Below, piece after piece: positions 859-52,016 of a DNA stretch of 64,000 nucleotides. How positions within the stretch are numbered: position 1 is the first letter of the stretch; each line of letters starts with the position of its first letter. A program made the translations under genes and the position numbers. The notes under the pieces are model-generated. The model did no database searches. It was not told where the DNA came from and saw only the letters and a program-made list of their open reading frames with translations. The stretch lies in sequence record PZ386961.1; one strand, 5' to 3'. The stretch comes from a phage.

Positions 859-1200
859 TTAACTGATGAATATTTTTTCAGGTTTTACATAGCTGATACG
901 CTGGCTTTTTAGCAGGTCATCCCAGATTAGCGCGGCAATATGAGAATAGCCGGATTCACGTAAAAGCTTCATTGTTTTACTTCTCGTTTCAAAACGGCTT
1001 GCGTAGTATTCACTGTTCAAGGTCGTTTTATTCCCTTCGTTATCTGTATGGATGATTTGCATCACTTGAAAGGGGCTTACATCCTCGCCTTTGTTCCACT
1101 GCTCAAAGTATTTTAGGCACTGCATAGGCGACATCTTATCACTAACCTGAGTTGACCAAGATGAGCCAGCTTTATCGGTAATTACGGTTACATAAGCCAT
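859..1200 (-). CDS. hypothetical protein
   Basis: 113-aa ORF preceded by type A promoter/leader cassette and AGGAG RBS. Confidence 0.55.
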   Translation of the reverse strand: MAYVTVITDKAGSSWSTQVSDKMSPMQCLKYFEQWNKGEDVSPFQVMQIIHTDNEGNKTTLNSEYYASRFETRSKTMKLLRESGYSHIAALIWDDLLKSQRISYVKPEKIFIS

Positions 1201-1265
1201 TTTTGAATCTCCTAGTTTAAGGACTTTATTTAGTGGGGAAGGTCATTCCCTCCCCGTTAATTGAC

Positions 1266-1294
1266 AATTTACAGATTTTTATCAGGCTTGTCTA
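1266..1294 (-). promoter_or_regulatory. sigma70-like promoter (TAGACA-17-TAAATT), type A cassette
   Basis: Minus-strand -35/-10 hexamers with 17-bp spacer upstream of leader hairpin and gene 859..1200. Confidence 0.45.
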
Positions 1295-1525
1295 GTCTTT
1301 TTCAATGATAATTTCATATTGACCATCAACACTGTCGAAATAGATTCCATCGTCATCTTCTGTCTTAAAGTAGCATTGAATATCATCACTGGCGGGATAG
1401 TCTTGCCTTGCTATCTGGCAAACTTGAATAGCATTTTCTTTACTTCCTGTAAACTCTTCAAGCCCTTTAAAGTCACATGAATGGCCATTACAAAGAGAAA
1501 GGATGAGGTAAATGGTTGTAAGCAT
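1292..1525 (-). CDS. hypothetical small protein with hydrophobic N-terminus
   Basis: 77-aa ORF, N-terminal hydrophobic segment MLTTIYLILSLC. Confidence 0.45.
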   Translation of the reverse strand: MLTTIYLILSLCNGHSCDFKGLEEFTGSKENAIQVCQIARQDYPASDDIQCYFKTEDDDGIYFDSVDGQYEIIIEKD

Positions 1526-1587
1526 GTTTTAAGTCCTCTAAATGGCCCTGTACGGGCCTTAAGTTGGAAATTGGTGCTTTGTATTGG

Positions 1588-2151
1588 TTAGCCTAAAAAG
1601 TCTCTTAGATTGCGTTCTGTGAGGCTGTTAGTAATTTTGTCCAGTAGGTCACAGTACACGGAGCTATCACTGCTATTCTGTACAATTTTTGCAATACTCA
1701 ACAAATCATCGTCAATATAGCCCAAATTGCGGTTAGTTGTATCAGGTACAAAGAAAGGCGCATACATCGCACTAAATTTCGCGGAGTGAATACCAACAAT
1801 CCAGTCTTTATCAAAGTAACCTGTAAAGCTGGCAATTTCGCTCATGTTGTCACAAGAATAATCATCCTCGAGTTCTTCCTCTGGTATATCCATTTCAATA
1901 ACAATCACTTCTTGCGTTTCCATTTGGAAAGCTGCCGTGATAAGCCCCGACTCTAAGGCGTTTTGAATGCAGCGTTCACGGATATAAGGGGCTTCCTCAT
2001 CCTCCAGACATTCCGTTTTGATAACCTTATTCATTGGGTAAACGTATAAACAATCATCCATGTAGGAGCAGTTCCATATTCCGTCCGGCTTATCGCCACC
2101 ATTCAGCATGTTTACAAAGTTTTTCAGAGTAGTGCCGTGATAGCATTTCAT
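1588..2151 (-). CDS. hypothetical acidic protein
   Basis: 187-aa ORF; conserved leader CCTAAACTGGAGATTCTAAA before ATG. Confidence 0.55.
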   Translation of the reverse strand: MKCYHGTTLKNFVNMLNGGDKPDGIWNCSYMDDCLYVYPMNKVIKTECLEDEEAPYIRERCIQNALESGLITAAFQMETQEVIVIEMDIPEEELEDDYSCDNMSEIASFTGYFDKDWIVGIHSAKFSAMYAPFFVPDTTNRNLGYIDDDLLSIAKIVQNSSDSSVYCDLLDKITNSLTERNLRDFLG

Positions 2152-2236
2152 TTTAGAATCTCCAGTTTAGGATTTAGTGGTAAAGTTCTTTATCTGGGGC
2201 TTACTCTATCGAACTATAAGCCCCTTGTAAAGTACT
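2152..2236 (-). promoter_or_regulatory. type B intergenic element: AAAGTACTTT palindrome + GGGGCTTA..TAAGCCCC hairpin + conserved translation-initiation leader
   Basis: Near-identical copies at 2947..3030, 4016..4103 and 4395..4480. Confidence 0.45.
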
Positions 2237-2440
2237 TTATTTGTTATTTTTGACAACTTTTAAAACTGCAAGGTAACCTAAGCAATAAGAATCACCGAAG
2301 AGAGTCCTACCCATGAAAGAATCCTCTTTAATATCCTTTGCAGTGACAGTTTTCTCTACGCCGTGGGAAAGGACTACATCACCAACTTTAATGTCTTTGA
2401 TGTGCGTGGTTTCAATGGTTAAACCGTTGATAATAGCCAT
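2237..2440 (-). CDS. hypothetical protein
   Basis: 67-aa ORF with type A cassette upstream. Confidence 0.5.
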   Translation of the reverse strand: MAIINGLTIETTHIKDIKVGDVVLSHGVEKTVTAKDIKEDSFMGRTLFGDSYCLGYLAVLKVVKNNK

Positions 2441-2504
2441 TTTGAATCTCCTAGTTTAAGGACTTTATTTAGTGGGGAAGGTTGTTCCCTCCCCGTTGAT
2501 GTGT

Positions 2505-2533
2505 AATTTAATCTATCTAAAAACCAGTGTCAA
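2505..2533 (-). promoter_or_regulatory. sigma70-like promoter (TTGACA-17-TAAATT), type A cassette
   Basis: Perfect -35 TTGACA on minus strand, 17-bp spacer, -10 TAAATT, then leader hairpin and AGGAG RBS. Confidence 0.5.
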
Positions 2534-2541
2534 CAAAATTT

Positions 2542-2946
2542 TTAGAGTTCTGCATAAATTGCATCACAGACATCACGAAAATCATGATTTGTCAAATTAC
2601 GTTGCAACCAAGTGGCGAAGAAATCAGCGATTGCAAAATTAGCGTCATACTCGACGGATAGCCATACTTTCACGGCAAATCGAAACATTTTTAAATCAAG
2701 TTCTTTATTCATTACCTTTGATTTGCCTAACATGTCAGCCATTTCATATTGCGCACCGTCTAGCGTGATACCTGCTGCAACGTCAGCCAATGAACTTTTT
2801 ACTTTTTCAACGTCTAAGATAACGCTTTGAATCTTTCCGATAATGTTGTGCAATGTTTCATCTGGTGCTGATGACGTGATAACATTGATTCGATTAACGG
2901 TCAAACGTGCTTTTAAGATTGATAATTCACGATTATTGATAGCCAT
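2542..2946 (-). CDS. hypothetical protein
   Basis: 134-aa ORF; conserved leader CCTAAATTGGAGATTCAAAA before ATG. Confidence 0.55.
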   Translation of the reverse strand: MAINNRELSILKARLTVNRINVITSSAPDETLHNIIGKIQSVILDVEKVKSSLADVAAGITLDGAQYEMADMLGKSKVMNKELDLKMFRFAVKVWLSVEYDANFAIADFFATWLQRNLTNHDFRDVCDAIYAEL

Positions 2947-3030
2947 TTTTGAATCTCCAATTTAGGATTAGTGGTAAAGCTCTTTATCTGGGGCTATCTT
3001 ATCAGCTTGATAACCCCCCTGTAAAGTACT
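2947..3030 (-). promoter_or_regulatory. type B intergenic element (palindrome + GC hairpin + conserved leader)
   Basis: GTAAAGTACTTTAC palindrome at about 3011-3026 adjacent to GGGG..CCCC hairpin. Confidence 0.4.
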
Positions 3031-3303
3031 TTACACTAAATGCAGTTTTTTACCTTTTACTATAATGTAACTCGATGCACTATTGCTGCAAACATCCTGA
3101 TAAATTCTGCGCAAACGTCCTTCATAGTATACTTTCCAGCTAGTTGGAATCTTTTTGCCGTATCCGGTAGCAGTTTTTTGGAGTCCTGCGACTTGCCAAT
3201 CTAAGATATGTTGCTCAGCCTGTAAATCCTCAAAGTGCATCACACCGTCTACATAGTGACGTAGAGTGACATTTAAAGTGCGGCCATTGTTAGTAGTATA
3301 CAT
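3031..3303 (-). CDS. hypothetical protein
   Basis: 90-aa ORF with type A cassette upstream. Confidence 0.5.
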   Translation of the reverse strand: MYTTNNGRTLNVTLRHYVDGVMHFEDLQAEQHILDWQVAGLQKTATGYGKKIPTSWKVYYEGRLRRIYQDVCSNSASSYIIVKGKKLHLV

Positions 3304-3367
3304 TTTAGAATCTCCTAGTTTAAGGACTTTATTTAGTGGGGGAGATTATTGCTCCCCGTTGATGAGT

Positions 3368-3396
3368 AATTTAATCTATCTAAAAATCAGTGTCAA
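3368..3396 (-). promoter_or_regulatory. sigma70-like promoter (TTGACA-17-TAAATT), type A cassette
   Basis: Same architecture as 2505..2533; hairpin GGGGGAG..CTCCCC in leader. Confidence 0.5.
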
Positions 3397-3725
3397 CAGT
3401 TTTGTTTTCGTTTGCTCAACTCTTGAACAATTACAGTATGATAGTCTTTTAAGTCACTAATATTTAAAGCATTTATCAGAGAATTATAATCATCGACTAA
3501 TTGAAAATCATCTTTGAAAATGTCGCTGATTTGATAAGTTCTCGCCCTGAATCTGAAGCTCATTTCTAACCGCTTTAATTGTTCATCGCTCAACCGCTCT
3601 AGAAAGCTCATTACAAGGCTATTGCTAACCTGTTGTGTGATTGCCTTATTTGCTAGATTATAGGCTTTATATGCCTTATAGAGCGCGAAAATGGCAATGA
3701 TTGCAGTGATACCAGTCATTAACAT
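3393..3725 (-). CDS. hypothetical membrane protein
   Basis: 110-aa ORF; N-terminal transmembrane-like segment GITAIIAIFALY. Confidence 0.5.
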   Translation of the reverse strand: MLMTGITAIIAIFALYKAYKAYNLANKAITQQVSNSLVMSFLERLSDEQLKRLEMSFRFRARTYQISDIFKDDFQLVDDYNSLINALNISDLKDYHTVIVQELSKRKQNC

Positions 3726-4015
3726 GGTGCTTCCTCTTTACGTGACACTTTGCCATTTACAGTTATCTCATAAGAATCTAGTAAATCGCTTTTAGATTTG
3801 ACAGGACTTTTAAGAGTATCATCGTAGATATTGACTTGCAATACAGGTTTTTTATACTCCCTGCAACTATTCCATAAGCAAATCACTACACGACGACCTT
3901 TTATTTTGCCGTGTAACCATTCCATAACATCATGACTATTCCTTGATGTTTCAATAAAATCAATTTTGTTAAGTAACTTGCTTAGATTTTCACGGACTTT
4001 ATTTGATAGTTTCAT
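3719..4015 (-). CDS. hypothetical protein
   Basis: 98-aa ORF; conserved leader before ATG. Confidence 0.5.
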   Translation of the reverse strand: MKLSNKVRENLSKLLNKIDFIETSRNSHDVMEWLHGKIKGRRVVICLWNSCREYKKPVLQVNIYDDTLKSPVKSKSDLLDSYEITVNGKVSRKEEAPC

Positions 4016-4103
4016 TTTTGAAACTCCAGTTTAGGATTAGTGGTAAAGCTCTTTATCTGGGGGCTTAAGGTATCAACTTTTAAGCCCCTTGTAAAGTACT
4101 TTA
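4016..4103 (-). promoter_or_regulatory. type B intergenic element
   Basis: GGGGGCTTAAGG..TTTTAAGCCCC hairpin followed by TTGTAAAGTACTTTA. Confidence 0.4.
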
Positions 4104-4394
4104 TCAGTTAATTTTCAGCTTTGCATGACTTCTCATTGTACGAATTGGAGATGTTAAGGCTACGCGTCTAATATATGCCTTTTTCGTGTATACATTTGTC
4201 TTTCCGATAGTGTTTACACATGTAAAAAGATTTATTGGTGAATTTTTTAACTTCAACTGTTTATCAGCCTTCACACCCCATCTTACAGCAGATTGTTTTC
4301 CGTTGTCAACCACTTTCCCGCCTAACTTTTTCGCCATGATGCGAGCGTCATCACGAGTTTTTACAGGAATTACAACGTTTTTGATAGTAGCCAT
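4104..4394 (-). CDS. hypothetical basic protein
   Basis: 96-aa ORF; conserved leader before ATG. Confidence 0.5.
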   Translation of the reverse strand: MATIKNVVIPVKTRDDARIMAKKLGGKVVDNGKQSAVRWGVKADKQLKLKNSPINLFTCVNTIGKTNVYTKKAYIRRVALTSPIRTMRSHAKLKIN

Positions 4395-4480
4395 TTTTGA
4401 ATCTCCAATTTAGGATTTAGTGGTAAAGCTCTTTATCTGGGGGCTTACTTTATCGAACTATAAGCCCCTTGTAAAGTACT
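4395..4480 (-). promoter_or_regulatory. type B intergenic element
   Basis: Almost identical to 2152..2236. Confidence 0.4.
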
Positions 4481-4687
4481 TTATTTGTCGTAGTAGTAAA
4501 TCGCTGTCTGCCTTGTAAATTTCTTAGTGTTTCTTGTAAGGTAACAATCAGATTTGATTGCCGTTTCTACATAGTTGCAATAGTCAGCTTCTGATATTCT
4601 GGACCATACGCCACAGATTTGCATGTAAAAACGTTTTCCCTTTGTGTTAACGTTAGTTGTAACTATCAATTCACGGTAGTAAGTCAT
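4481..4687 (-). CDS. hypothetical protein
   Basis: 68-aa ORF, overlaps next gene by 4 nt (coupled). Confidence 0.45.
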   Translation of the reverse strand: MTYYRELIVTTNVNTKGKRFYMQICGVWSRISEADYCNYVETAIKSDCYLTRNTKKFTRQTAIYYYDK

Positions 4688-4875
4688 TTTTTAATACTCC
4701 ACTTTTCGAACAATTCAGCAGGGAAACGTTCGCTATATCCTTTTAGGGAAAATGTACCGTCTTCGTGGATAGCTTCCACCTGATAAACCTTGTAAGAGCG
4801 AATAGTTAACATTTTGTAAGAGTGTTCATATTTTACGTTAACCTCATCGCCAACTTTGATTTTTCTTGATGCCAT
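4684..4875 (-). CDS. hypothetical protein
   Basis: 63-aa ORF; RBS CTGGAG; promoter at 4926..4954. Confidence 0.5.
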   Translation of the reverse strand: MASRKIKVGDEVNVKYEHSYKMLTIRSYKVYQVEAIHEDGTFSLKGYSERFPAELFEKWSIKK

Positions 4876-4925
4876 TTTTAGATTCTCCAGTTTAGGAAGT
4901 GGGCTTGTTTGCCCGTCTGATGCAA

Positions 4926-4954
4926 ATATTACGTAAACCTGTTTTGTGTGTCAA
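4926..4954 (-). promoter_or_regulatory. sigma70-like promoter (TTGACA-17-TAATAT)
   Basis: Minus-strand hexamers with 17-bp spacer, followed by GGGC..GCCC leader hairpin. Confidence 0.5.
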
Positions 4955-5128
4955 CAGTTTTTATTAAATATTTTTGTAAGGTTGGGAAAGGAACGGGCGC
5001 GCGCGACTACCACAAAACAGAACTACAATCAAGAATTATTTTTCAATCCGCTACAAATTTTTCTGTTGACTTTTATTTCCAGATGTGGTAGCCTTGTGAG
5101 AAATGGCGACATCCCCACCTGCACCCAC

Positions 5129-47436: not shown

Positions 47437-47446
47437 AAACAAAAAA

Positions 47447-47475
47447 GGCTCCCGTAAAAAGGAGCCTTAAAATTT
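47447..47475. terminator. bidirectional rho-independent terminator between convergent thyA and late operon
   Basis: GGCTCC-CGTAAAAA-GGAGCC hairpin flanked by A-run upstream and T-runs downstream. Confidence 0.65.
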
Positions 47476-48040: not shown

Positions 48041-48119
48041 TTAATCACCTCATCAGCCAAGATGGTGAGAATACCCATAAAGAATATTAACACCATCTTA
48101 ACAATCAGTCAACAAGGGA

Positions 48120-50489
48120 TTAAGCAGTTCTTACCCAAGCCATTAACTTATAGAACTTGTTAGTAACACTGAATGCTGAACCAGAACCAGTACCACCTGT
48201 GTTACCACTAACTGTGTGGCTGTGAGCACCAATACCAACAGTGTGGCTGTGAGCACCTGTTGTATTTGTTACACCTGTCCAAGTCCTTGACGCTTGGAAA
48301 TCAGCAGCAGCACCGTAAGTGAAGTTAGAGCCTGTGAAGCCATGTGAAGACTGAGAACTACCCATCTTAAACGCACCACTAGCAGTGTAGAATGAACTAT
48401 TATCACTTCTGAACCAACCAACCACACCAGTAATCTCCATAGTACCTCTGTTGTGGTTATGGTTACCAGTTGTACTAGAAGTTTTAGTACCATAATCAAA
48501 TGACGAAGTAGTCGCAGAGAAACTATGCGTGTGTGAAGGCAAGTTACCAACAGCTAATGTTACAGAGTCTGAACCACCAGTTGTAGCAACATCTGAACCG
48601 TTTGCTGCTGCAATTCTAATAGTTCTACCAACACCATTGTTCAGGTACGTCCAAGTTAACCCAGGAAGTGCTGTGTTAGGGTTGACATTACTGTTAAACC
48701 ACGTCACAATCCCTACTGGATAGATTTTATTCAGGTCTGTAGAGTCACTAATTGCATCTGCAATCTTCTGGTCAGTTTCAGCTTTAGTGTATGCACCGAT
48801 GTCTGAAGGGGTTGGTTTATCTTTGTCTGTATAGATTTTAGACCAAGCACTCTCAAAACCATAACCGTCTCTTGCTGACCTATACCAAAAACCGCCATTG
48901 TTGTAGTTAAATTTTAACTGAGTTGCTGGTGTAGAACTGCTACCCTGATACATATGGTAGACCAGTTGTGTTGAACCACCAGATTTCGTTGTAACATTAT
49001 ACAGACCAGTTTTAGCATTCCAAGCAATTCCATCACTATCACCTACCTCTGTACCAGAACCAGTAGATACAGCAAGCATGTACCTAGAGTTTGCGACAGA
49101 TTGCGTATAATATCTAGCATCTAAGTTAGAGAAATCTGAAGGTTGAATCTGCCCTGCTAGGGTTAATGTCTTATTGATACTTGCAGATGAGTTACCTAAA
49201 ATTAACCAAGTGCCAGAGAAGCTGTTGTTTAAGGCTACATCAGTAGAATTTGGGTCACCAACACCTAACCACCATCTTGATACATTGGCAGCGTCCTTAC
49301 CACGAATATACAATGGCCTATTCTGAGTAGAGTTTTTAATAACTAAACCTTCACCATCACTAACAACTGTTTGCGCACCATTAAAAGTATTTTGTGCATT
49401 AGTTCTTGCAATCGTACTTAATGTTGCTACCGGAATATATCTAGAGTCAATGTTAGCCCAATCTGAAGGTTGGACTTGTCCAGTGATTTGCACAGTTTTA
49501 TTGATACCAATAGTAGTACCTAGTGAAACCTGTGAACCTGTAAGGTAGTTATAAATGTTTAGACGTGTCTCGTCAGAATCTGTACCAACATACCATTTAT
49601 TTGTTCCATCAGACTTCTTACCGAGAATGTAAAGTGCTGTATTTGCATCAGTATTCTGCAAAGTAATGGCATTAGCATTCTTCTTAGCAACAAGGTTAGT
49701 GAAAGTGTTAGCACCTGTAAAAGTATTATTGCCAGCTAACTGTGCAAATCTCTGATTAGCAACTGTCTGAGTGAAGTATCTCGCATCTAAGTTAGAGAAA
49801 TCTGAAGGTTGAACTTGACCAGTGATTGCTAAAGACTTATTAACAGAGACATTACTTGCAACAGTCAAGGCTGAGTTGTATTTGTTATTGTACAGCTTTA
49901 CTTCGTCAGAGCCATTACTACCAATACCAACCCACCATCTAGTCGAACCATCTAGGTTTACACCTTCGATATATTGTGCATTATTTGCATTTTGGTTTCT
50001 AAGGCGAAGTAAGTTAGCATCACCTTGAATATTTTGAGTTCCAGAAAATGTGTTTGTGATAGCAAGTCTTGCGTATCTTGCATCATTCTCTTCATTAGTC
50101 CTCATACCAAGCTCATTAGGACTTGGCTTATTCAGAGTATGATAAACAGTTGCTGACCTTGAAGCATCTGCAATAGTTAGTTTAAGACCATTTGCGTTAA
50201 TTTTAAAAGTCTTTAAAATATCCCCAATAGTAATCTCAGAAGAGCCTGTAGGGTCAAATACAGCCTTACCACCATAAAGTAACTTGACAATACCTAAATC
50301 CCCCGTCATAGTGCTCCCAGCAATCTGAACAAACCTTTCTAGTTTGAAGGAAGCTAAGAAGTCTTGATAGGTCATTCTGCGGTCTTCATCACCCAACATT
50401 TCAGGTCTTTTCTTAACTCTGATGTGCAATAGGTCTTCTGAACGAATTGTGTCGATTGAGTTTAATTGACTCAATTTGTAATCTGCCAT
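48120..50489 (-). CDS. tail fibre protein (long), His-box C-terminal tip
   Basis: 789 aa; three internal ~100-aa repeats (SDFSNLDARY...); C-terminal HTHSF / GAHSHTVGIGAHSHTV repeats. Confidence 0.7.
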   Translation of the reverse strand: MADYKLSQLNSIDTIRSEDLLHIRVKKRPEMLGDEDRRMTYQDFLASFKLERFVQIAGSTMTGDLGIVKLLYGGKAVFDPTGSSEITIGDILKTFKINANGLKLTIADASRSATVYHTLNKPSPNELGMRTNEENDARYARLAITNTFSGTQNIQGDANLLRLRNQNANNAQYIEGVNLDGSTRWWVGIGSNGSDEVKLYNNKYNSALTVASNVSVNKSLAITGQVQPSDFSNLDARYFTQTVANQRFAQLAGNNTFTGANTFTNLVAKKNANAITLQNTDANTALYILGKKSDGTNKWYVGTDSDETRLNIYNYLTGSQVSLGTTIGINKTVQITGQVQPSDWANIDSRYIPVATLSTIARTNAQNTFNGAQTVVSDGEGLVIKNSTQNRPLYIRGKDAANVSRWWLGVGDPNSTDVALNNSFSGTWLILGNSSASINKTLTLAGQIQPSDFSNLDARYYTQSVANSRYMLAVSTGSGTEVGDSDGIAWNAKTGLYNVTTKSGGSTQLVYHMYQGSSSTPATQLKFNYNNGGFWYRSARDGYGFESAWSKIYTDKDKPTPSDIGAYTKAETDQKIADAISDSTDLNKIYPVGIVTWFNSNVNPNTALPGLTWTYLNNGVGRTIRIAAANGSDVATTGGSDSVTLAVGNLPSHTHSFSATTSSFDYGTKTSSTTGNHNHNRGTMEITGVVGWFRSDNSSFYTASGAFKMGSSQSSHGFTGSNFTYGAAADFQASRTWTGVTNTTGAHSHTVGIGAHSHTVSGNTGGTGSGSAFSVTNKFYKLMAWVRTA

Positions 50490-50507
50490 TATAAATTTTC
50501 CTCTTAA

Positions 50508-50527
50508 AAGGGGCTACAAAGCCCCTG
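50508..50527 (-). promoter_or_regulatory. intergenic GC hairpin between tail-fibre genes (attenuator/terminator-like)
   Basis: GGGGCT-ACAAA-GCCCC followed on minus strand by UUUU and the AAGAGG RBS of the next gene. Confidence 0.4.
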
Positions 50528-50535
50528 TAAAGAAA

Positions 50536-51711
50536 TTAAGCTGTTCTCTGCCACACATATACTACAAAAGATGGTTGCTCAACACTGAAAGCTTGACCAC
50601 CACCAACAGAACCAGATGTTCCTGAGTGTGTATGTTCGGAGCTAGAAACAGTAACAGACCCTGTATGACTGTGTGAACCAATATTAACAGTGTGGCTGTG
50701 AGCACCAATTGCAACAGTATGACTGTGAGCACCAGATGATGCAGTTGTACCTGAGAAGCTATGAGTATGAGCACCAGCCAAATCAGTATACACAGCATAC
50801 CCAACACCAGCATCAGCGGATGCAGTAATAGCATTTGACCCACCTCTGTCGTTACCCCTCATAGGTACTCTATGGTTGTGGTTACCAGCATTACTTGTCG
50901 TGCCACTAAAAGTGTGGGTGTGAGCACCAGAACTGTCAGTCGTTTTTGTACCGTAGTCAAAAGTTGATGTACTCTTTGAACCATAATCAAAACTAGAGAT
51001 AGATACACTTGCAGAGTGTGTATGACCACCACCTGTTAAATAGATAGAGTGAGTGTGTGCTGGTAAATTATTATTTGTTAATGCTACAGTCTGAGAACCA
51101 AACGTTGAACCAACAGGTCTAGAATCTGTATCATAACCAACTAGTGCTCTACCTTTAGAAACTAACTCCCAAGTACCTCCACAAAGTAAGTAAGTGGATG
51201 GGTTAGCTGGATTCACAGATAGATGGATTGTCCCTACTGGATATGATGCTTGGATAGCTTTGTACAATTTATTGACTGCTTTTGCTGTAGCATATTTATC
51301 AGCATCTTCATTATATAAATTAGATGTTGTCCAGTTTTGAACGTTACTTAAACCAACCTGTGCTTTCGTTGTATTGTGTGGGTTACTTTTATCGTCAATA
51401 TGTTTCTTAATTAAATTATTCACTTCCTCTGACGACATAATTTGTAGATTTGCTCTTGCCTCAGCAACATTCACAATGTCTGACAAGTTATTAGCTGCAA
51501 CTAATTGAAGAGAGTTAATAACATTATCAAGACCCACTTGTGATTTAGTTACACCATGAGGATTATTCCTCAGAGATGCGTGAGGTGCTAACAACTGCTC
51601 AAGCGTACATCTTTTATCCTCAACACCTTGCTTAAGGTGGAAGATATCACTCAAATCAATTGGTAAGGCCGCTTGTGGCAAGGCACTAATTTGAATTTCA
51701 CCTACTGCCAT
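50536..51711 (-). CDS. tail fibre protein (short), His-box C-terminal tip
   Basis: 391 aa; N-terminal repeated NPHxxTKxQVGLxNV motif; C-terminal HTHSFSGTT...GAHSHTVAIGAHSHTVNIGSHSHTG. Confidence 0.7.
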   Translation of the reverse strand: MAVGEIQISALPQAALPIDLSDIFHLKQGVEDKRCTLEQLLAPHASLRNNPHGVTKSQVGLDNVINSLQLVAANNLSDIVNVAEARANLQIMSSEEVNNLIKKHIDDKSNPHNTTKAQVGLSNVQNWTTSNLYNEDADKYATAKAVNKLYKAIQASYPVGTIHLSVNPANPSTYLLCGGTWELVSKGRALVGYDTDSRPVGSTFGSQTVALTNNNLPAHTHSIYLTGGGHTHSASVSISSFDYGSKSTSTFDYGTKTTDSSGAHTHTFSGTTSNAGNHNHRVPMRGNDRGGSNAITASADAGVGYAVYTDLAGAHTHSFSGTTASSGAHSHTVAIGAHSHTVNIGSHSHTGSVTVSSSEHTHSGTSGSVGGGQAFSVEQPSFVVYVWQRTA

Positions 51712-51713
51712 TA

Positions 51714-52016
51714 TTAAGCTCCTACATATTCATATGTGTAAAGGTTTCTTGTACTTGTTGATGCAGTCCCTGTCTCAGACTTAATGAGGTTCCAGCCATT
51801 AGCCACTAAATCTGGTTGCTCAGTTGCATATGAACGAACTTCACCAACAGTGCCATTTACTTTATTCAGCAGGTAGTTGATAATATAGTTGAACCACTGT
51901 CTACCCATAGGCTCACCCTTTAAAAGACCTGTCTCTTGAACTTCCGGTGGTGGTAAAACTTTTAACTGATTACCATCAGTATCTACTTCGTTTGTAGACC
52001 AATTTAGAACTGCCAT
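51714..52016 (-). CDS. hypothetical tail/baseplate-associated protein
   Basis: 100-aa ORF between baseplate and fibre genes. Confidence 0.45.

What the first reader, a model, noticed from the sequence alone, without database searches (positions are those of the whole stretch)
48120..51711. Two tail-fibre genes share a His-X-His-rich C-terminal tip despite different lengths and repeat architectures
The 789-aa and 391-aa fibre proteins both end in HTHSF...GAHSHTV(A/G)IGAHSHTV...AFSV...W(V/Q)RTA. The long fibre has three internal ~100-aa repeats and the short one has repeated NPHxxTKxQVGLxNV motifs near its N-terminus. By established knowledge, HxH boxes in T4-type fibre tips coordinate metal ions in an interdigitated needle domain. 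Shared tips on two fibres suggest tip duplication or exchange and possibly a common receptor class. The internal repeats are hot spots for length variation.
Basis: partly seen in the sequence, partly recalled or inferred. Interest (0 to 1): 0.45.

Follow-up and report, generated by a model that had tools for sequence, protein, structure and literature searches.

The report
Felix O1-type phage's two T4-like fibre tips
These are the short and long side-fibre genes of a Felix O1-like coliphage; both end in the already described T4 gp37-type histidine-stapled needle, which is the constant scaffold, while the probable receptor-contacting head is a different, swappable insert in each fibre.

Summary
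The two minus-strand ORFs (391 aa and 789 aa) exist as described. Both carry the quoted GxHxH boxes and the AFSV…W(V/Q)RTA ending, far beyond chance.

The window is a Felixounavirus, 92-94% identical in DNA to E. coli O157 typing phages. The genes match Bas63 gp26/gp27, Felix O1 gp76/gp77 and Sf14 gp52/gp53.

Both C-terminal regions are homologous to the T4 gp37 receptor-binding tip (PDB 2XGF). This was noted for Felix O1 in 2010 and described for both Bas63 fibres in 2025, so it is already known.

The interpretation needs three corrections:
- **The chain doubles back.** The shared C-terminal motifs are the nearly invariant scaffold, not the distal end.
- **The heads differ.** The distal head is the insert between the descending and ascending HxH strands. 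The two heads here are unrelated (67 vs 34 aa), so a common receptor or recent tip duplication is not supported. Each tip is closer to more than 100 foreign fibres than to its partner.
- **Repeat number is constant.** Length differences come from swapped modules.

Beyond the finding, the LTF gene is a clear mosaic, and its head cassette is shared at 85-92% DNA identity with T-even gp37 genes. In Felix O1 itself the two heads are 29/31 identical.

The parts
50536..51711 (-). Short side-fibre gene (STF, 391 aa). Orthologue of Bas63 gp26, Felix O1 gp76 and Sf14 gp52.
   Evidence: ORF. phrog_2097 tail fiber, E=1e-136. 91-100% DNA identity to O157 typing phage 15 over most bins.
51277..51711 (-). 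STF N-terminal baseplate-binding and shaft region (aa 1-145), with two NPHxxTKxQVGLxNV motifs at aa 50 and 110.
   Evidence: The motifs are conserved at the same positions in 9 of the 12 relatives examined. [quoted passage not shown] That these sequence motifs are those structural motifs is my inference.
51058..51276 (-). STF collar domain (aa ~146-218), T4 gp10 C-terminal / gp37 collar type.
   Evidence: Pfam PF21939 Gp10_C, E=5.8e-18, residues 154-276. 2XGF and 2FKK sequence hits. Foldseek of the AF2 monomer gives weak gp10 hits, E 5e-3 to 8e-3.
50872..51057 (-). STF descending needle strand (aa 219-280): four HxH boxes plus two 10-aa FDYG(S/T)K repeats.
   Evidence: Aligns to the T4 gp37 descending strand, including its HxH boxes.
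50770..50871 (-). STF head insert (aa 281-314, 34 aa). Predicted distal, receptor-contacting part; the most variable stretch of the protein.
   Evidence: Identity to the sampled phages from hosts other than O157 E. coli or Shigella falls to 22-40% here, against 85-100% at the N-terminus. This allele is found in 61 phage records, mainly from E. coli O157/STEC, Shigella and Citrobacter.
50539..50769 (-). STF ascending needle strand (five HxH boxes) and the C-terminal return segment AFSV…WQRTA (aa 315-391).
48120..50489 (-). Long side-fibre gene (LTF, 789 aa). Orthologue of Bas63 gp27, Felix O1 gp77 and Sf14 gp53.
   Evidence: ORF. phrog_4277 tail fiber, E=0, full length.
49074..50087 (-). LTF shaft: three ~110-aa repeats (aa 135-246, 247-357, 358-472), each ending in the linker QPSDxxNxDxRY (aa 227, 340, 449).
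   Evidence: Pfam PF20744 three times. Repeat alignment. Linker positions. DNA mosaic breakpoints at about aa 360 and 450.
48738..49064 (-). LTF gp37_C / phage Mu fibre-S-like domain (aa 476-584).
   Evidence: Pfam PF12604, E=4e-27. PDB 8JU3 Mu tail fibre S, E=5e-25, aligned 477-577. Replaced by a different, ~60 aa longer module in the 843-848-aa LTFs.
48534..48734 (-). LTF collar (aa ~586-652).
   Evidence: Pfam Gp10_C weak hit, E=1.3e-3, below the curated cut-off. The column set Y-P-x-G…P-N…W-x-Y…R…G-G-x-D…P-x-H-x-H is invariant across 117 homologues. 95-100% conserved among most Felixounavirus sampled.
48453..48533 (-). LTF descending needle strand (aa 653-679): two HxH boxes plus one FDYGTK repeat.
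48252..48452 (-). LTF head insert (aa 680-746, 67 aa). Predicted distal receptor-contacting domain, and a swappable cassette.
   Evidence: 10-18% identity to Felix O1-type LTFs in this bin, against 97-100% in the flanks. The allele occurs in 61 phage records, mainly O157/STEC, Shigella and Citrobacter. It includes gp37 of two T-even phages, with 86% aa / 85% DNA identity to CJY920.
48123..48251 (-). LTF ascending needle strand (two HxH boxes) and the C-terminal return segment AFSV…WVRTA (aa 747-789).
   Evidence: 93-97% conserved in the Felixounavirus sampled and 79-86% in Mooglevirus/Suspvirus relatives.
48209..48257 (-). LTF copy of the 49-nt His-box patch (encodes GAHSHTVxIGAHSHTV). This is the only DNA-level similarity between the two fibre genes; the STF copy is at 50685-50733.
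   Evidence: blastn of STF nt 979-1027 against LTF nt 2233-2281: 89.8% identity, E=3e-14.
50685..50733 (-). STF copy of the 49-nt His-box patch.
51714..52016 (-). LTF-platform protein (100 aa), the baseplate attachment point for the long fibre (context).
   Evidence: PDB 9NDY chain S, 'LTF platform protein (gp025)' of Bas63, E=1e-58. The neighbouring 489-aa protein matches 9NDY wedge protein 2.

Best explanation
**What the genes are.** They encode the two side fibres of a Felixounavirus (Felix O1-like myophage): a 391-aa short fibre and a 789-aa long fibre.

**Architecture of each tip.** Each fibre ends in a T4 gp37-type receptor-binding tip module. After a small collar domain the chain runs away from the virion as a beta-strand carrying GxHxH boxes. 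It forms a small head at the far end, then runs back as a second strand with more GxHxH boxes, finishing near the collar.

**Role of the HxH boxes.**
- In the trimer the six strands make a needle. Each HxH box from the three chains provides six histidines around one metal ion (Fe2+ in T4).
- This predicts up to 9 metal sites in the short fibre and 4 in the long one.

**Where specificity lies.** Receptor specificity should sit in the head insert between the two strands. The two heads here differ (67 aa in the long fibre, 34 aa in the short one), so the two fibres most likely recognise different surface structures.

**How heads change.** The conserved collar, FDYGTK and His-box sequences flanking the head act as homology arms. 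Heads are exchanged as cassettes among related phages and even with T-even gp37 genes.

**Shown versus inferred.**
- Shown here: homology, the motif layout, head variability, the mosaic breakpoints and the cross-family cassette sharing.
- Inferred: trimeric needle geometry, metal binding, which receptor is bound, and recombination at the His boxes as the exchange mechanism.
For: **Identity and context.**
- The region is 92-94% identical in DNA to O157 typing phages and MET-P1-301, within 232 Felixounavirus-type records.
- The upstream genes match Bas63 wedge 2 and the LTF platform in PDB 9NDY.

**Homology to the solved T4 tip.**
- STF 146-362 matches 2XGF at E=2e-25, and all seven T4 HxH boxes align.
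- The LTF matches 2XGF at E=8e-4 alone and at E=7e-15 as a 117-sequence profile.
- HxH enrichment is non-random: 0 of 20000 shuffles reach the observed count.

**Published structure work.**
- Bas63 (PMC12609058): both fibres have collar, HxH needle and head, and the chain doubles back.
- Sf14 and Felix O1 papers agree.

**The head is the variable part.**
- It is the lowest-identity bin in both proteins, while the flanks stay at 93-100% in most Felixounavirus sampled.
- In 117 homologues the head segment ranges from 46 to 97 aa, with 4-7 HxH in those inspected.

**The two heads are unrelated here**.

**Cassette exchange.**
- The window LTF is about 97-100% TP15-like over aa 1-360. It is 98-100% Felix O1-like over aa 361-450 and 88-98% HMD-P10-like over most of aa 451-570. 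The head is 89-93% HMD-P10-like.
- Head cores are 86-92% aa and 85-92% DNA identical to gp37 of Tequatrovirus CJY920 and Mosigvirus ZQ3. Two Felixounavirus sub-alleles of the same head are only 66% identical to each other.
- The phage REP7 fibre carries a T4-like head, 66/76 identical.
- fBSPA4 keeps the window-type STF head (97.7% identical) but has another LTF head.
Against: - **No trimer model.** AF2 monomer models are poor (mean pLDDT 60-61, heads below 50). Foldseek recovered only weak gp10-collar hits for the STF and nothing significant for the LTF.
- **Weaker LTF evidence.** The LTF has only 4 HxH boxes and its single-sequence match to 2XGF is weak.
- **Metal untested.** Metal identity and occupancy were not tested.
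- **No chaperone found.** T4 gp37 needs the gp38 chaperone, and no gp38 homologue is detectable in the 64-kb window. Folding may therefore differ.
- **Adaptive changes elsewhere.** One evolution experiment on Felixounavirus phages found changes at aa 497 and 534 of the long fibre, in the Mu-S-like domain rather than the head (PMC6669636).
- **Linkage.** The LTF and STF head alleles co-occur in nearly the same ~58 phages. Host association may partly reflect linkage rather than function.
Confidence: 0.85

Rival explanations
1. One reading: the two fibres carry the same tip because of a recent duplication or exchange within this genome. They would therefore recognise one receptor class.
For: - 31% identity over ~270 aa, E=2e-19, with identical GAHSHTVxIGAHSHTV boxes.
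- A 49-nt patch of 90% DNA identity between the genes.
- In Felix O1 itself the two heads are 29/31 identical, with 270 nt at 81%. Such exchange does therefore happen in this genus.
Against: - In the window phage the heads are unrelated in sequence and length (67 vs 34 aa, local score 17).
- Each tip is more similar to over 100 foreign fibres, and the STF tip to T4 gp37, than to its partner (ranks 112 and 122 of 123).
- The shared strings are the parts conserved across phages from different host genera.
Confidence: 0.06
2. The His-rich region adopts the gp37-like fold, but the histidines serve something other than permanent iron stapling. Examples would be Zn sites as in T4 gp12, or a pH- or metal-sensitive switch that controls fibre deployment.
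For: - The number of boxes varies widely between homologues, from 4 to 9.
- The LTF keeps only four boxes yet has a larger head. The boxes are thus not all essential.
- Metal identity was not tested here.
Against: - All seven Fe-binding boxes of T4 gp37 align with STF boxes.
- Four His-containing columns (two HxH boxes) are invariant across 117 homologues, and a third box is nearly invariant.
- Published interpretations of the Bas63 fibres follow the T4 iron model.
Confidence: 0.1
3. Host specificity is set mainly outside the needle head, for example by the Mu-S-like domain (LTF aa 476-584) or the shaft repeats. Head variability would then reflect hitch-hiking in a recombination-prone region.
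For: - Shaft repeats and the aa 476-584 module are also strongly mosaic.
- Adaptive substitutions at aa 497 and 534 of a Felixounavirus long fibre were reported (PMC6669636).
- The Mu fibre S domain is homologous.
Against: - The head is the most variable bin in both fibres.
- Head alleles track host genus: 61 records, almost none from Salmonella.
- The same head moves between unrelated phage families with only its His-box flanks. This is expected for the specificity determinant, as in T4.
Confidence: 0.12

Closest known systems
T4 gp37 long-tail-fibre receptor-binding tip (PDB 2XGF; Bartual et al. 2010)
   Same: Collar, descending and ascending GxHxH strands, a variable head between them, FDYGTK repeats, and a hydrophobic C-terminal return (IAFNYIVRLA vs AFSV…WVRTA). 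STF E=2e-25, with 48% identity over 121 aa.
   Different: - T4 has 7 HxH boxes. Here there are 9 (STF) and 4 (LTF).
- T4 gp37 is the distal quarter of a four-protein fibre and needs gp38 and gp57A. Here the tip is fused to a single-protein fibre, and no gp38 homologue is seen in the window.
Bas63 (Escherichia phage JohannRWettstein) STF gp26 and LTF gp27, cryo-EM plus AlphaFold (PMC12609058)
   Same: Same genus, same gene order, two fibres, and both described as having the T4-like collar-needle-head tip. The neighbouring platform and wedge proteins match PDB 9NDY.
   Different: - Bas63 has 7 (STF) and 6 (LTF) HxH boxes. The window phage has 9 and 4.
- The window LTF carries a different, larger head allele (67 aa).
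- The fibre chains are not in the deposited model, since searches gave no 9NDY hit.
Felix O1 gp76/gp77 (Whichard et al. 2010, PMC3185647)
   Same: Orthologous genes. C-terminal similarity of both proteins to T4 gp37 was already noted.
   Different: Felix O1's two heads are nearly identical to each other (29/31), and its LTF has 6 HxH boxes. In the window phage the two heads are unrelated.
Shigella phage Sf14 gp52 (391 aa) and gp53 (792 aa) (PMC11821841)
   Same: Same sizes. Sf14 carries the same LTF and STF head alleles at 75% and 70% identity. The authors suggest the two fibres may bind different receptors, and report no chaperone gene.
   Different: Different genus (Mooglevirus). The paper places the 'C24-like'/gp37-like domain mid-fibre rather than treating it as a folded-back tip.
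Phage Mu tail fibre S/S' (PDB 8JU3) and Pfam PF12604 gp37_C
   Same: LTF aa 477-577 is homologous, E=5e-25.
   Different: In Mu this domain lies near the end of the fibre. Here it is followed by an additional T4-type collar-needle-head module.

Membership tests
T4 gp37-type receptor-binding tip (collar-needle-head) | Significant sequence homology to the solved tip (2XGF) | tested here: met
   STF E=2.3e-25 over chain residues 18-227. LTF E=8e-4 alone and E=7e-15 as a family profile.
T4 gp37-type receptor-binding tip (collar-needle-head) | Collar domain of the gp10_C / phage tail collar type preceding the needle | tested here: met
   - STF: PF21939 E=5.8e-18, above the curated cut-off, and weak Foldseek gp10 hits.
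- LTF: only E=1.3e-3, below the cut-off. Its collar columns are nevertheless invariant in the 117-sequence family.
T4 gp37-type receptor-binding tip (collar-needle-head) | Two blocks of GxHxH boxes (descending and ascending) separated by a head insert | tested here: met
   STF has 4+5 boxes around aa 281-314. LTF has 2+2 boxes around aa 680-746. Enrichment is beyond all 20000 shuffles.
T4 gp37-type receptor-binding tip (collar-needle-head) | Trimeric six-stranded needle with octahedral metal sites formed by six His | tested here: inconclusive
   - Only monomer AF2 was available: pLDDT 60-61 and the needle was not recovered.
- The trimer geometry is supported indirectly by Bas63 cryo-EM density with fitted AlphaFold models. 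Metal binding there is an inference from T4.
- Metal binding cannot be tested with these tools.
T4 gp37-type receptor-binding tip (collar-needle-head) | Dependence on a dedicated gp38-type chaperone encoded next to the fibre gene | tested here: not met
   - tblastn of a T-even gp38 against the window finds nothing (best E=2.4).
- The downstream genes are 65-aa and 123-aa membrane/holin-like proteins.
- Only 64 kb was searched, and gp57A was not tested.
- This feature belongs to T4 fibre assembly rather than to the fold.
Felixounavirus / Ounavirinae STF-LTF pair | Synteny wedge 2 - wedge 1 - LTF platform - STF - LTF, and high identity to genus members | tested here: met
   92-94% DNA identity to O157 typing phages, and the same gene order in 13 related phages (12 sampled plus fBSPA4).

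The most novel reading that the evidence does not exclude
The head insert is a self-contained, portable receptor-binding cassette that has moved repeatedly between two unrelated myophage lineages.
- At least three allele pairs are shared between Felixounavirus long fibres and Tevenvirinae gp37: window/HMD-P10 with Tequatrovirus CJY920, wV8/TP15 with Mosigvirus ZQ3, and REP7 with T4.
- Exchange appears to use the His-box and FDYGTK motifs as recombination arms.
- The cassette would fold in the Felixounavirus context without a gp38-type chaperone.

If so, the O157/Shigella-type Felixounavirus long fibre would share its receptor with those T-even phages (OmpC or an LPS-core sugar). Heads could then be transplanted across families by design. 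This cross-family sharing was not mentioned in the papers I read, but I cannot show that it is unpublished.
Probability: 0.4. Interest if true: 0.5.

Novelty: already known. Interest (0 to 1): 0.25.

Why it matters
As stated, the finding restates published knowledge. Similarity of both Felix O1 fibres to T4 gp37 was noted in 2010, and T4-like tips on both fibres were described for Bas63 in 2025. Its value lies mainly in correct annotation.

The practical point is where specificity lies. The conspicuous shared HxH motifs are the constant scaffold. Host-range engineering or prediction should instead target the 67-aa and 34-aa head inserts.

The conserved flanks and the natural cross-family sharing of heads suggest precise, ready-made junctions for tip swapping in O157, Shigella and Salmonella biocontrol phages.

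Tried and rejected
- **AF2 monomer models of both tips**, using 117-118-sequence alignments: mean pLDDT 60.4 and 61.0, with heads below 50.
- **Foldseek against the PDB.**
  - The LTF tip gave nothing significant (top hit 6OV6 C24, E=0.65).
  - The STF tip gave only weak gp10-collar hits.
- **BLASTP self-comparison of the LTF** did not report the internal repeats. They were shown by Pfam and by explicit alignment instead.
- **Search for a gp38-like chaperone** in the window: none.
- **PDB sequence search of the alternative module** in 848-aa LTFs: no significant hit.
- **tRNA scan of the window:** none.
- **Terminator scan:** it did not flag the STF-LTF intergenic hairpin, which has only four trailing T.
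- **Rejected: recent intragenomic duplication**.
- **Rejected: variable repeat number as the cause of length differences**.

Full report
**1. Observation.**

The two ORFs are as described: 48120..50489 (-) encodes 789 aa and 50536..51711 (-) encodes 391 aa. I call them LTF and STF, following the Bas63 nomenclature.

BLASTP aligns LTF 563-789 with STF 136-391 at 31% identity, E=2e-19. Both proteins contain the quoted HTHSF, GAHSHTV(A/G)IGAHSHTV, AFSV and W(V/Q)RTA strings.

HxH motifs number 4 in the LTF (653, 677, 747, 756) and 9 in the STF (219-360). Most sit in a GxHxH(S/T) context. None of 20000 shuffles of either whole protein reaches these counts.

The three ~110-aa LTF repeats (135-246, 247-357, 358-472) match Pfam PF20744 three times, E=1e-83. 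The STF NPHxxTKxQVGLxNV motif occurs twice, at residues 50 and 110.

**2. What the locus is.**

The 3.6-kb region is 92-94% identical to E. coli O157 typing phages 1, 12 and 15 and to MET-P1-301. It matches 232 phage records, essentially all Felix O1-like.

The genes upstream match the Bas63 baseplate model PDB 9NDY. The 100-aa protein is the 'LTF platform' (E=1e-58) and the 489-aa protein is wedge protein 2. Gene order is identical in 13 related phages (12 sampled plus fBSPA4).

The two genes are therefore the Felixounavirus short and long side fibres. They correspond to Bas63 gp26/gp27, Felix O1 gp76/gp77 and Sf14 gp52/gp53. The Sf14 proteins are 391 and 792 aa, almost the same sizes as here.

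**3. Anatomy.**

*STF.*
- N-terminal region of ~145 aa.
- Collar: Pfam Gp10_C, E=6e-18.
- Descending strand with four HxH boxes and two FDYG(S/T)K decamers.
- A 34-aa insert (aa 281-314).
- Ascending strand with five HxH boxes.
- The AFSV…WQRTA end.

STF 146-362 matches the T4 gp37 tip crystal structure 2XGF at E=2e-25. All seven T4 HxH boxes have STF counterparts, and there are two extra boxes at the collar-proximal ends.

*LTF.*
- N-terminal region.
- Three PF20744 repeats.
- A PF12604 domain homologous to phage Mu fibre S (8JU3, E=5e-25).
- Collar.
- Two HxH boxes.
- A 67-aa insert (aa 680-746).
- Two HxH boxes.
- The AFSV…WVRTA end.

Alone, the LTF matches 2XGF only at E=8e-4. A profile of 117 homologues matches at E=7e-15.

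According to the Bas63 cryo-EM paper, the chain doubles back at the head and returns to the collar (PMC12609058). The insert between the HxH blocks is therefore the distal head. The C-terminus is not the far end of the fibre.

**4. Structure prediction.**

Only monomer AF2 was available. Both tip models are poor (mean pLDDT 60-61, heads below 50). Foldseek gave nothing significant for the LTF and only weak gp10-collar hits for the STF. The needle geometry and metal binding therefore rest on homology and on the published work. I did not show them here.

**5. What is shared and what is not.**

I compared the window with 12 relatives from Salmonella, E. coli, Shigella and Citrobacter hosts.
- In most Felixounavirus sampled, the collar, the His boxes and the last ~40 aa are 93-100% conserved. 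In Mooglevirus/Suspvirus relatives they are lower, at 60-86%.
- The head bin falls to 10-25%.

Within the window phage:
- The two heads are unrelated (67 vs 34 aa, local score 17).
- The two genes share only a 49-nt His-box patch at the DNA level.
- In a pool of 123 sequences (the query itself, its partner, T4 gp37 and 120 foreign fibre proteins), each tip ranks its partner 112th and 122nd. The STF tip is closer to T4 gp37 than to its own LTF.

Recent duplication or exchange, and a common receptor, are therefore not supported for this phage.

In Felix O1 itself the two heads are 29/31 identical, with 270 nt at 81% between the genes.

**6. Mosaicism.**

DNA identity of the window LTF gene to its relatives, in 90-nt bins:

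| LTF residues | Closest relative | DNA identity |
|---|---|---|
| 1-360 | TP15/wV8 type | 97-100% in most bins |
| 361-450 | Felix O1 | 98-100% |
| 451-570 | HMD-P10 | 88-98% in most bins |
| 571-660 | conserved in the Felixounavirus compared | about 90-98% |
| 661-750 (head) | HMD-P10 | 89-93% (Felix O1 40-64%) |
| 751-789 | conserved in the Felixounavirus compared | >90% |

The breaks at about aa 360 and 450 lie just after the QPSDxxNxDxRY linkers that end each shaft repeat.

All four LTFs scanned have three PF20744 repeats. The 782-794 and 812-848 aa size classes come from an alternative module in place of the Mu-S-like domain. The Bas63 authors likewise found no variable repeat number.

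The only copy-number variation I saw is in the 10-aa FDYGTK decamer of the STF needle, with 2-4 copies.

**7. Head alleles and hosts.**

The window LTF head allele occurs in 61 phage records, from E. coli O157/STEC, Shigella and Citrobacter, and almost none from Salmonella. The STF head allele also occurs in 61 records, nearly the same set, plus Salmonella phages fBSPA4 and S19cd. fBSPA4 keeps the window-type STF head (97.7% identical) but has a different 6-HxH LTF head, so the two heads can assort independently.

Two of the 61 LTF-head records are T-even phages: Tequatrovirus CJY920 and Mosigvirus ZQ3. In ZQ3 the cassette sits in the annotated gp37 gene, which is followed by a gp38-like gene. 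In the unannotated CJY920 record it sits in a 1091-codon ORF of the same type.

| Head-core pair | aa identity | DNA identity |
|---|---|---|
| window vs CJY920 | 86% | 85% |
| HMD-P10 vs CJY920 | 92% | 88% |
| TP15 vs ZQ3 | 90% | 92% |
| window vs TP15 (both Felixounavirus) | 66% | 67% |

DNA similarity to the T-even genes spans only ~285-298 nt, covering the head and its FDYGTK and His-box flanks. The phage REP7 fibre carries a head that is 66/76 identical to T4's own.

More broadly, 328 database proteins, mostly prophage fibres of Erwinia, Providencia, Photorhabdus, Mixta and Serratia, share the constant collar and His boxes. Among the 116 aligned, head segments range from 46 to 97 aa, with 4-7 HxH in those inspected.

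**8. Mechanism.**

*Best supported.* Both fibres end in a gp37-type trimeric needle stapled by HxH-metal sites, with predicted 9 and 4 sites. Specificity resides in the distal head. The two fibres of this phage carry different heads and so probably bind different receptors, as the Sf14 authors also suggest. Heads are exchanged as cassettes by recombination in the conserved flanks.

*Inferred.* The metal, the receptors and the recombination mechanism are all inferred. From my own knowledge, recombination at 'His boxes' was proposed for T-even gp37 by Tétart and Krisch in the 1990s. My literature search did not retrieve those papers.

*Caveats.*
- No gp38 homologue is present in the window.
- Adaptive changes at LTF aa 497 and 534, outside the head, were reported in one Felixounavirus evolution study.
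- Felixounavirus receptors are generally thought to be LPS.

**9. Novelty and verdict.**

- Whichard et al. 2010 noted that both Felix O1 fibre proteins resemble T4 gp37 at the C-terminus.
- The Sf14 (2025) and Bas63 (2025) papers describe the two fibres. The Bas63 paper also describes the T4-like collar-needle-head tips with HxH boxes on both fibres and the variability of the tips.
- The finding as written is therefore already known.
- Its interpretation is only partly right: the fold is correct, the common-receptor idea is not, and the length-variation idea is not.
- The additional points (cross-family head sharing, the Felix O1 double head, the chimeric LTF) are modestly interesting. They are recorded as the novel case and as side notes.

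Noticed in passing
L001 (Felix O1): STF CDS 1529-2695 (head aa 281-311) and LTF CDS 2746-5094 (head aa 695-725): In Felix O1 itself the heads of the two fibres are 29/31 identical, and 270 nt of the two genes are 81% identical. None of the other 12 phages examined, including the window phage, shows this. Felix O1 may therefore point both fibres at one receptor.
   Followed up: partly
Window 48252-48452 (-); L013 ORF 1109-4384 (aa 970-1028); L014 CDS 1229-4369 (aa 925-983): The LTF head cassette is shared with gp37 of T-even phages (Tequatrovirus CJY920, Mosigvirus ZQ3) at 85-92% DNA identity over ~290 nt. Two Felixounavirus sub-alleles of the same head are only 66-67% identical to each other. 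The phage REP7 fibre (P0001) carries a head 66/76 identical to T4's.
   Followed up: partly
Window 48120-50489 (-): The LTF gene is a chimera. It is about 97-100% TP15/wV8-like over aa 1-360, 98-100% Felix O1-like over aa 361-450, and HMD-P10-like over most of aa 451-570 and in the head. Breakpoints fall next to the QPSDxxNxDxRY linkers that end each shaft repeat.
   Followed up: yes
L003 (TP15) LTF aa ~473-646; also wV8, finno, ph2-2 and Henu12: The 812-848-aa long fibres lack the PF12604 / Mu-S-like domain. They carry a different module in its place, ~60 aa longer in the 843-848-aa fibres, with no Pfam or PDB sequence match. This module, not repeat number, explains the two LTF size classes.
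   Followed up: partly
Window 50510-50525 (-), in the 46-nt STF-LTF spacer: A GC-rich hairpin, GGGGCTTTGTAGCCCC, followed by TTTT lies between the two fibre genes. The equivalent site is annotated as a rho-independent terminator in wV8. It may lower LTF expression relative to STF. The consensus terminator scan did not flag it.
   Followed up: no
Window 48084-48112 (-) and 47445-47468: A promoter-like TTGACT-17-TAATAT with an upstream TG lies directly after the LTF stop. It sits ahead of the 65-aa and 123-aa (holin-annotated) genes. A bidirectional terminator hairpin separates these from the convergent thymidylate synthase gene.
   Followed up: no
STF needle, window aa 241-260 (about 50932-50991); L007, L009, L010, L011: The 10-aa FDYG(S/T)K decamer in the descending needle strand varies from 2 to 4 copies among short fibres. 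Extra copies accompany fewer or repositioned HxH boxes in that strand (finno and SUSP2 have 7 boxes in total; Mordin and Henu12 keep 9).
   Followed up: partly
L015 (Salmonella phage fBSPA4) CDS 1140-3518 and 3565-4740: fBSPA4 has the window-type STF head (97.7% identical), but its LTF carries a different head (43 aa) and 6 HxH boxes. The near-identical genome fKMPT1 is listed with an E. coli host. This is a natural single-head swap, useful for host-range tests.
   Followed up: partly
Whole window 1-64000: ARAGORN finds no tRNA genes in the 64 kb, although Felix O1-like genomes carry 22-26. The tRNA cluster must lie outside this window.
   Followed up: no
Proteins P0009-P0120: A large family of prophage tail-fibre and 'baseplate' proteins occurs in Erwinia, Providencia, Photorhabdus, Mixta, Serratia and Xenorhabdus. 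They share the same collar plus His-box scaffold at ~39-52% identity, with hypervariable heads.
   Followed up: no
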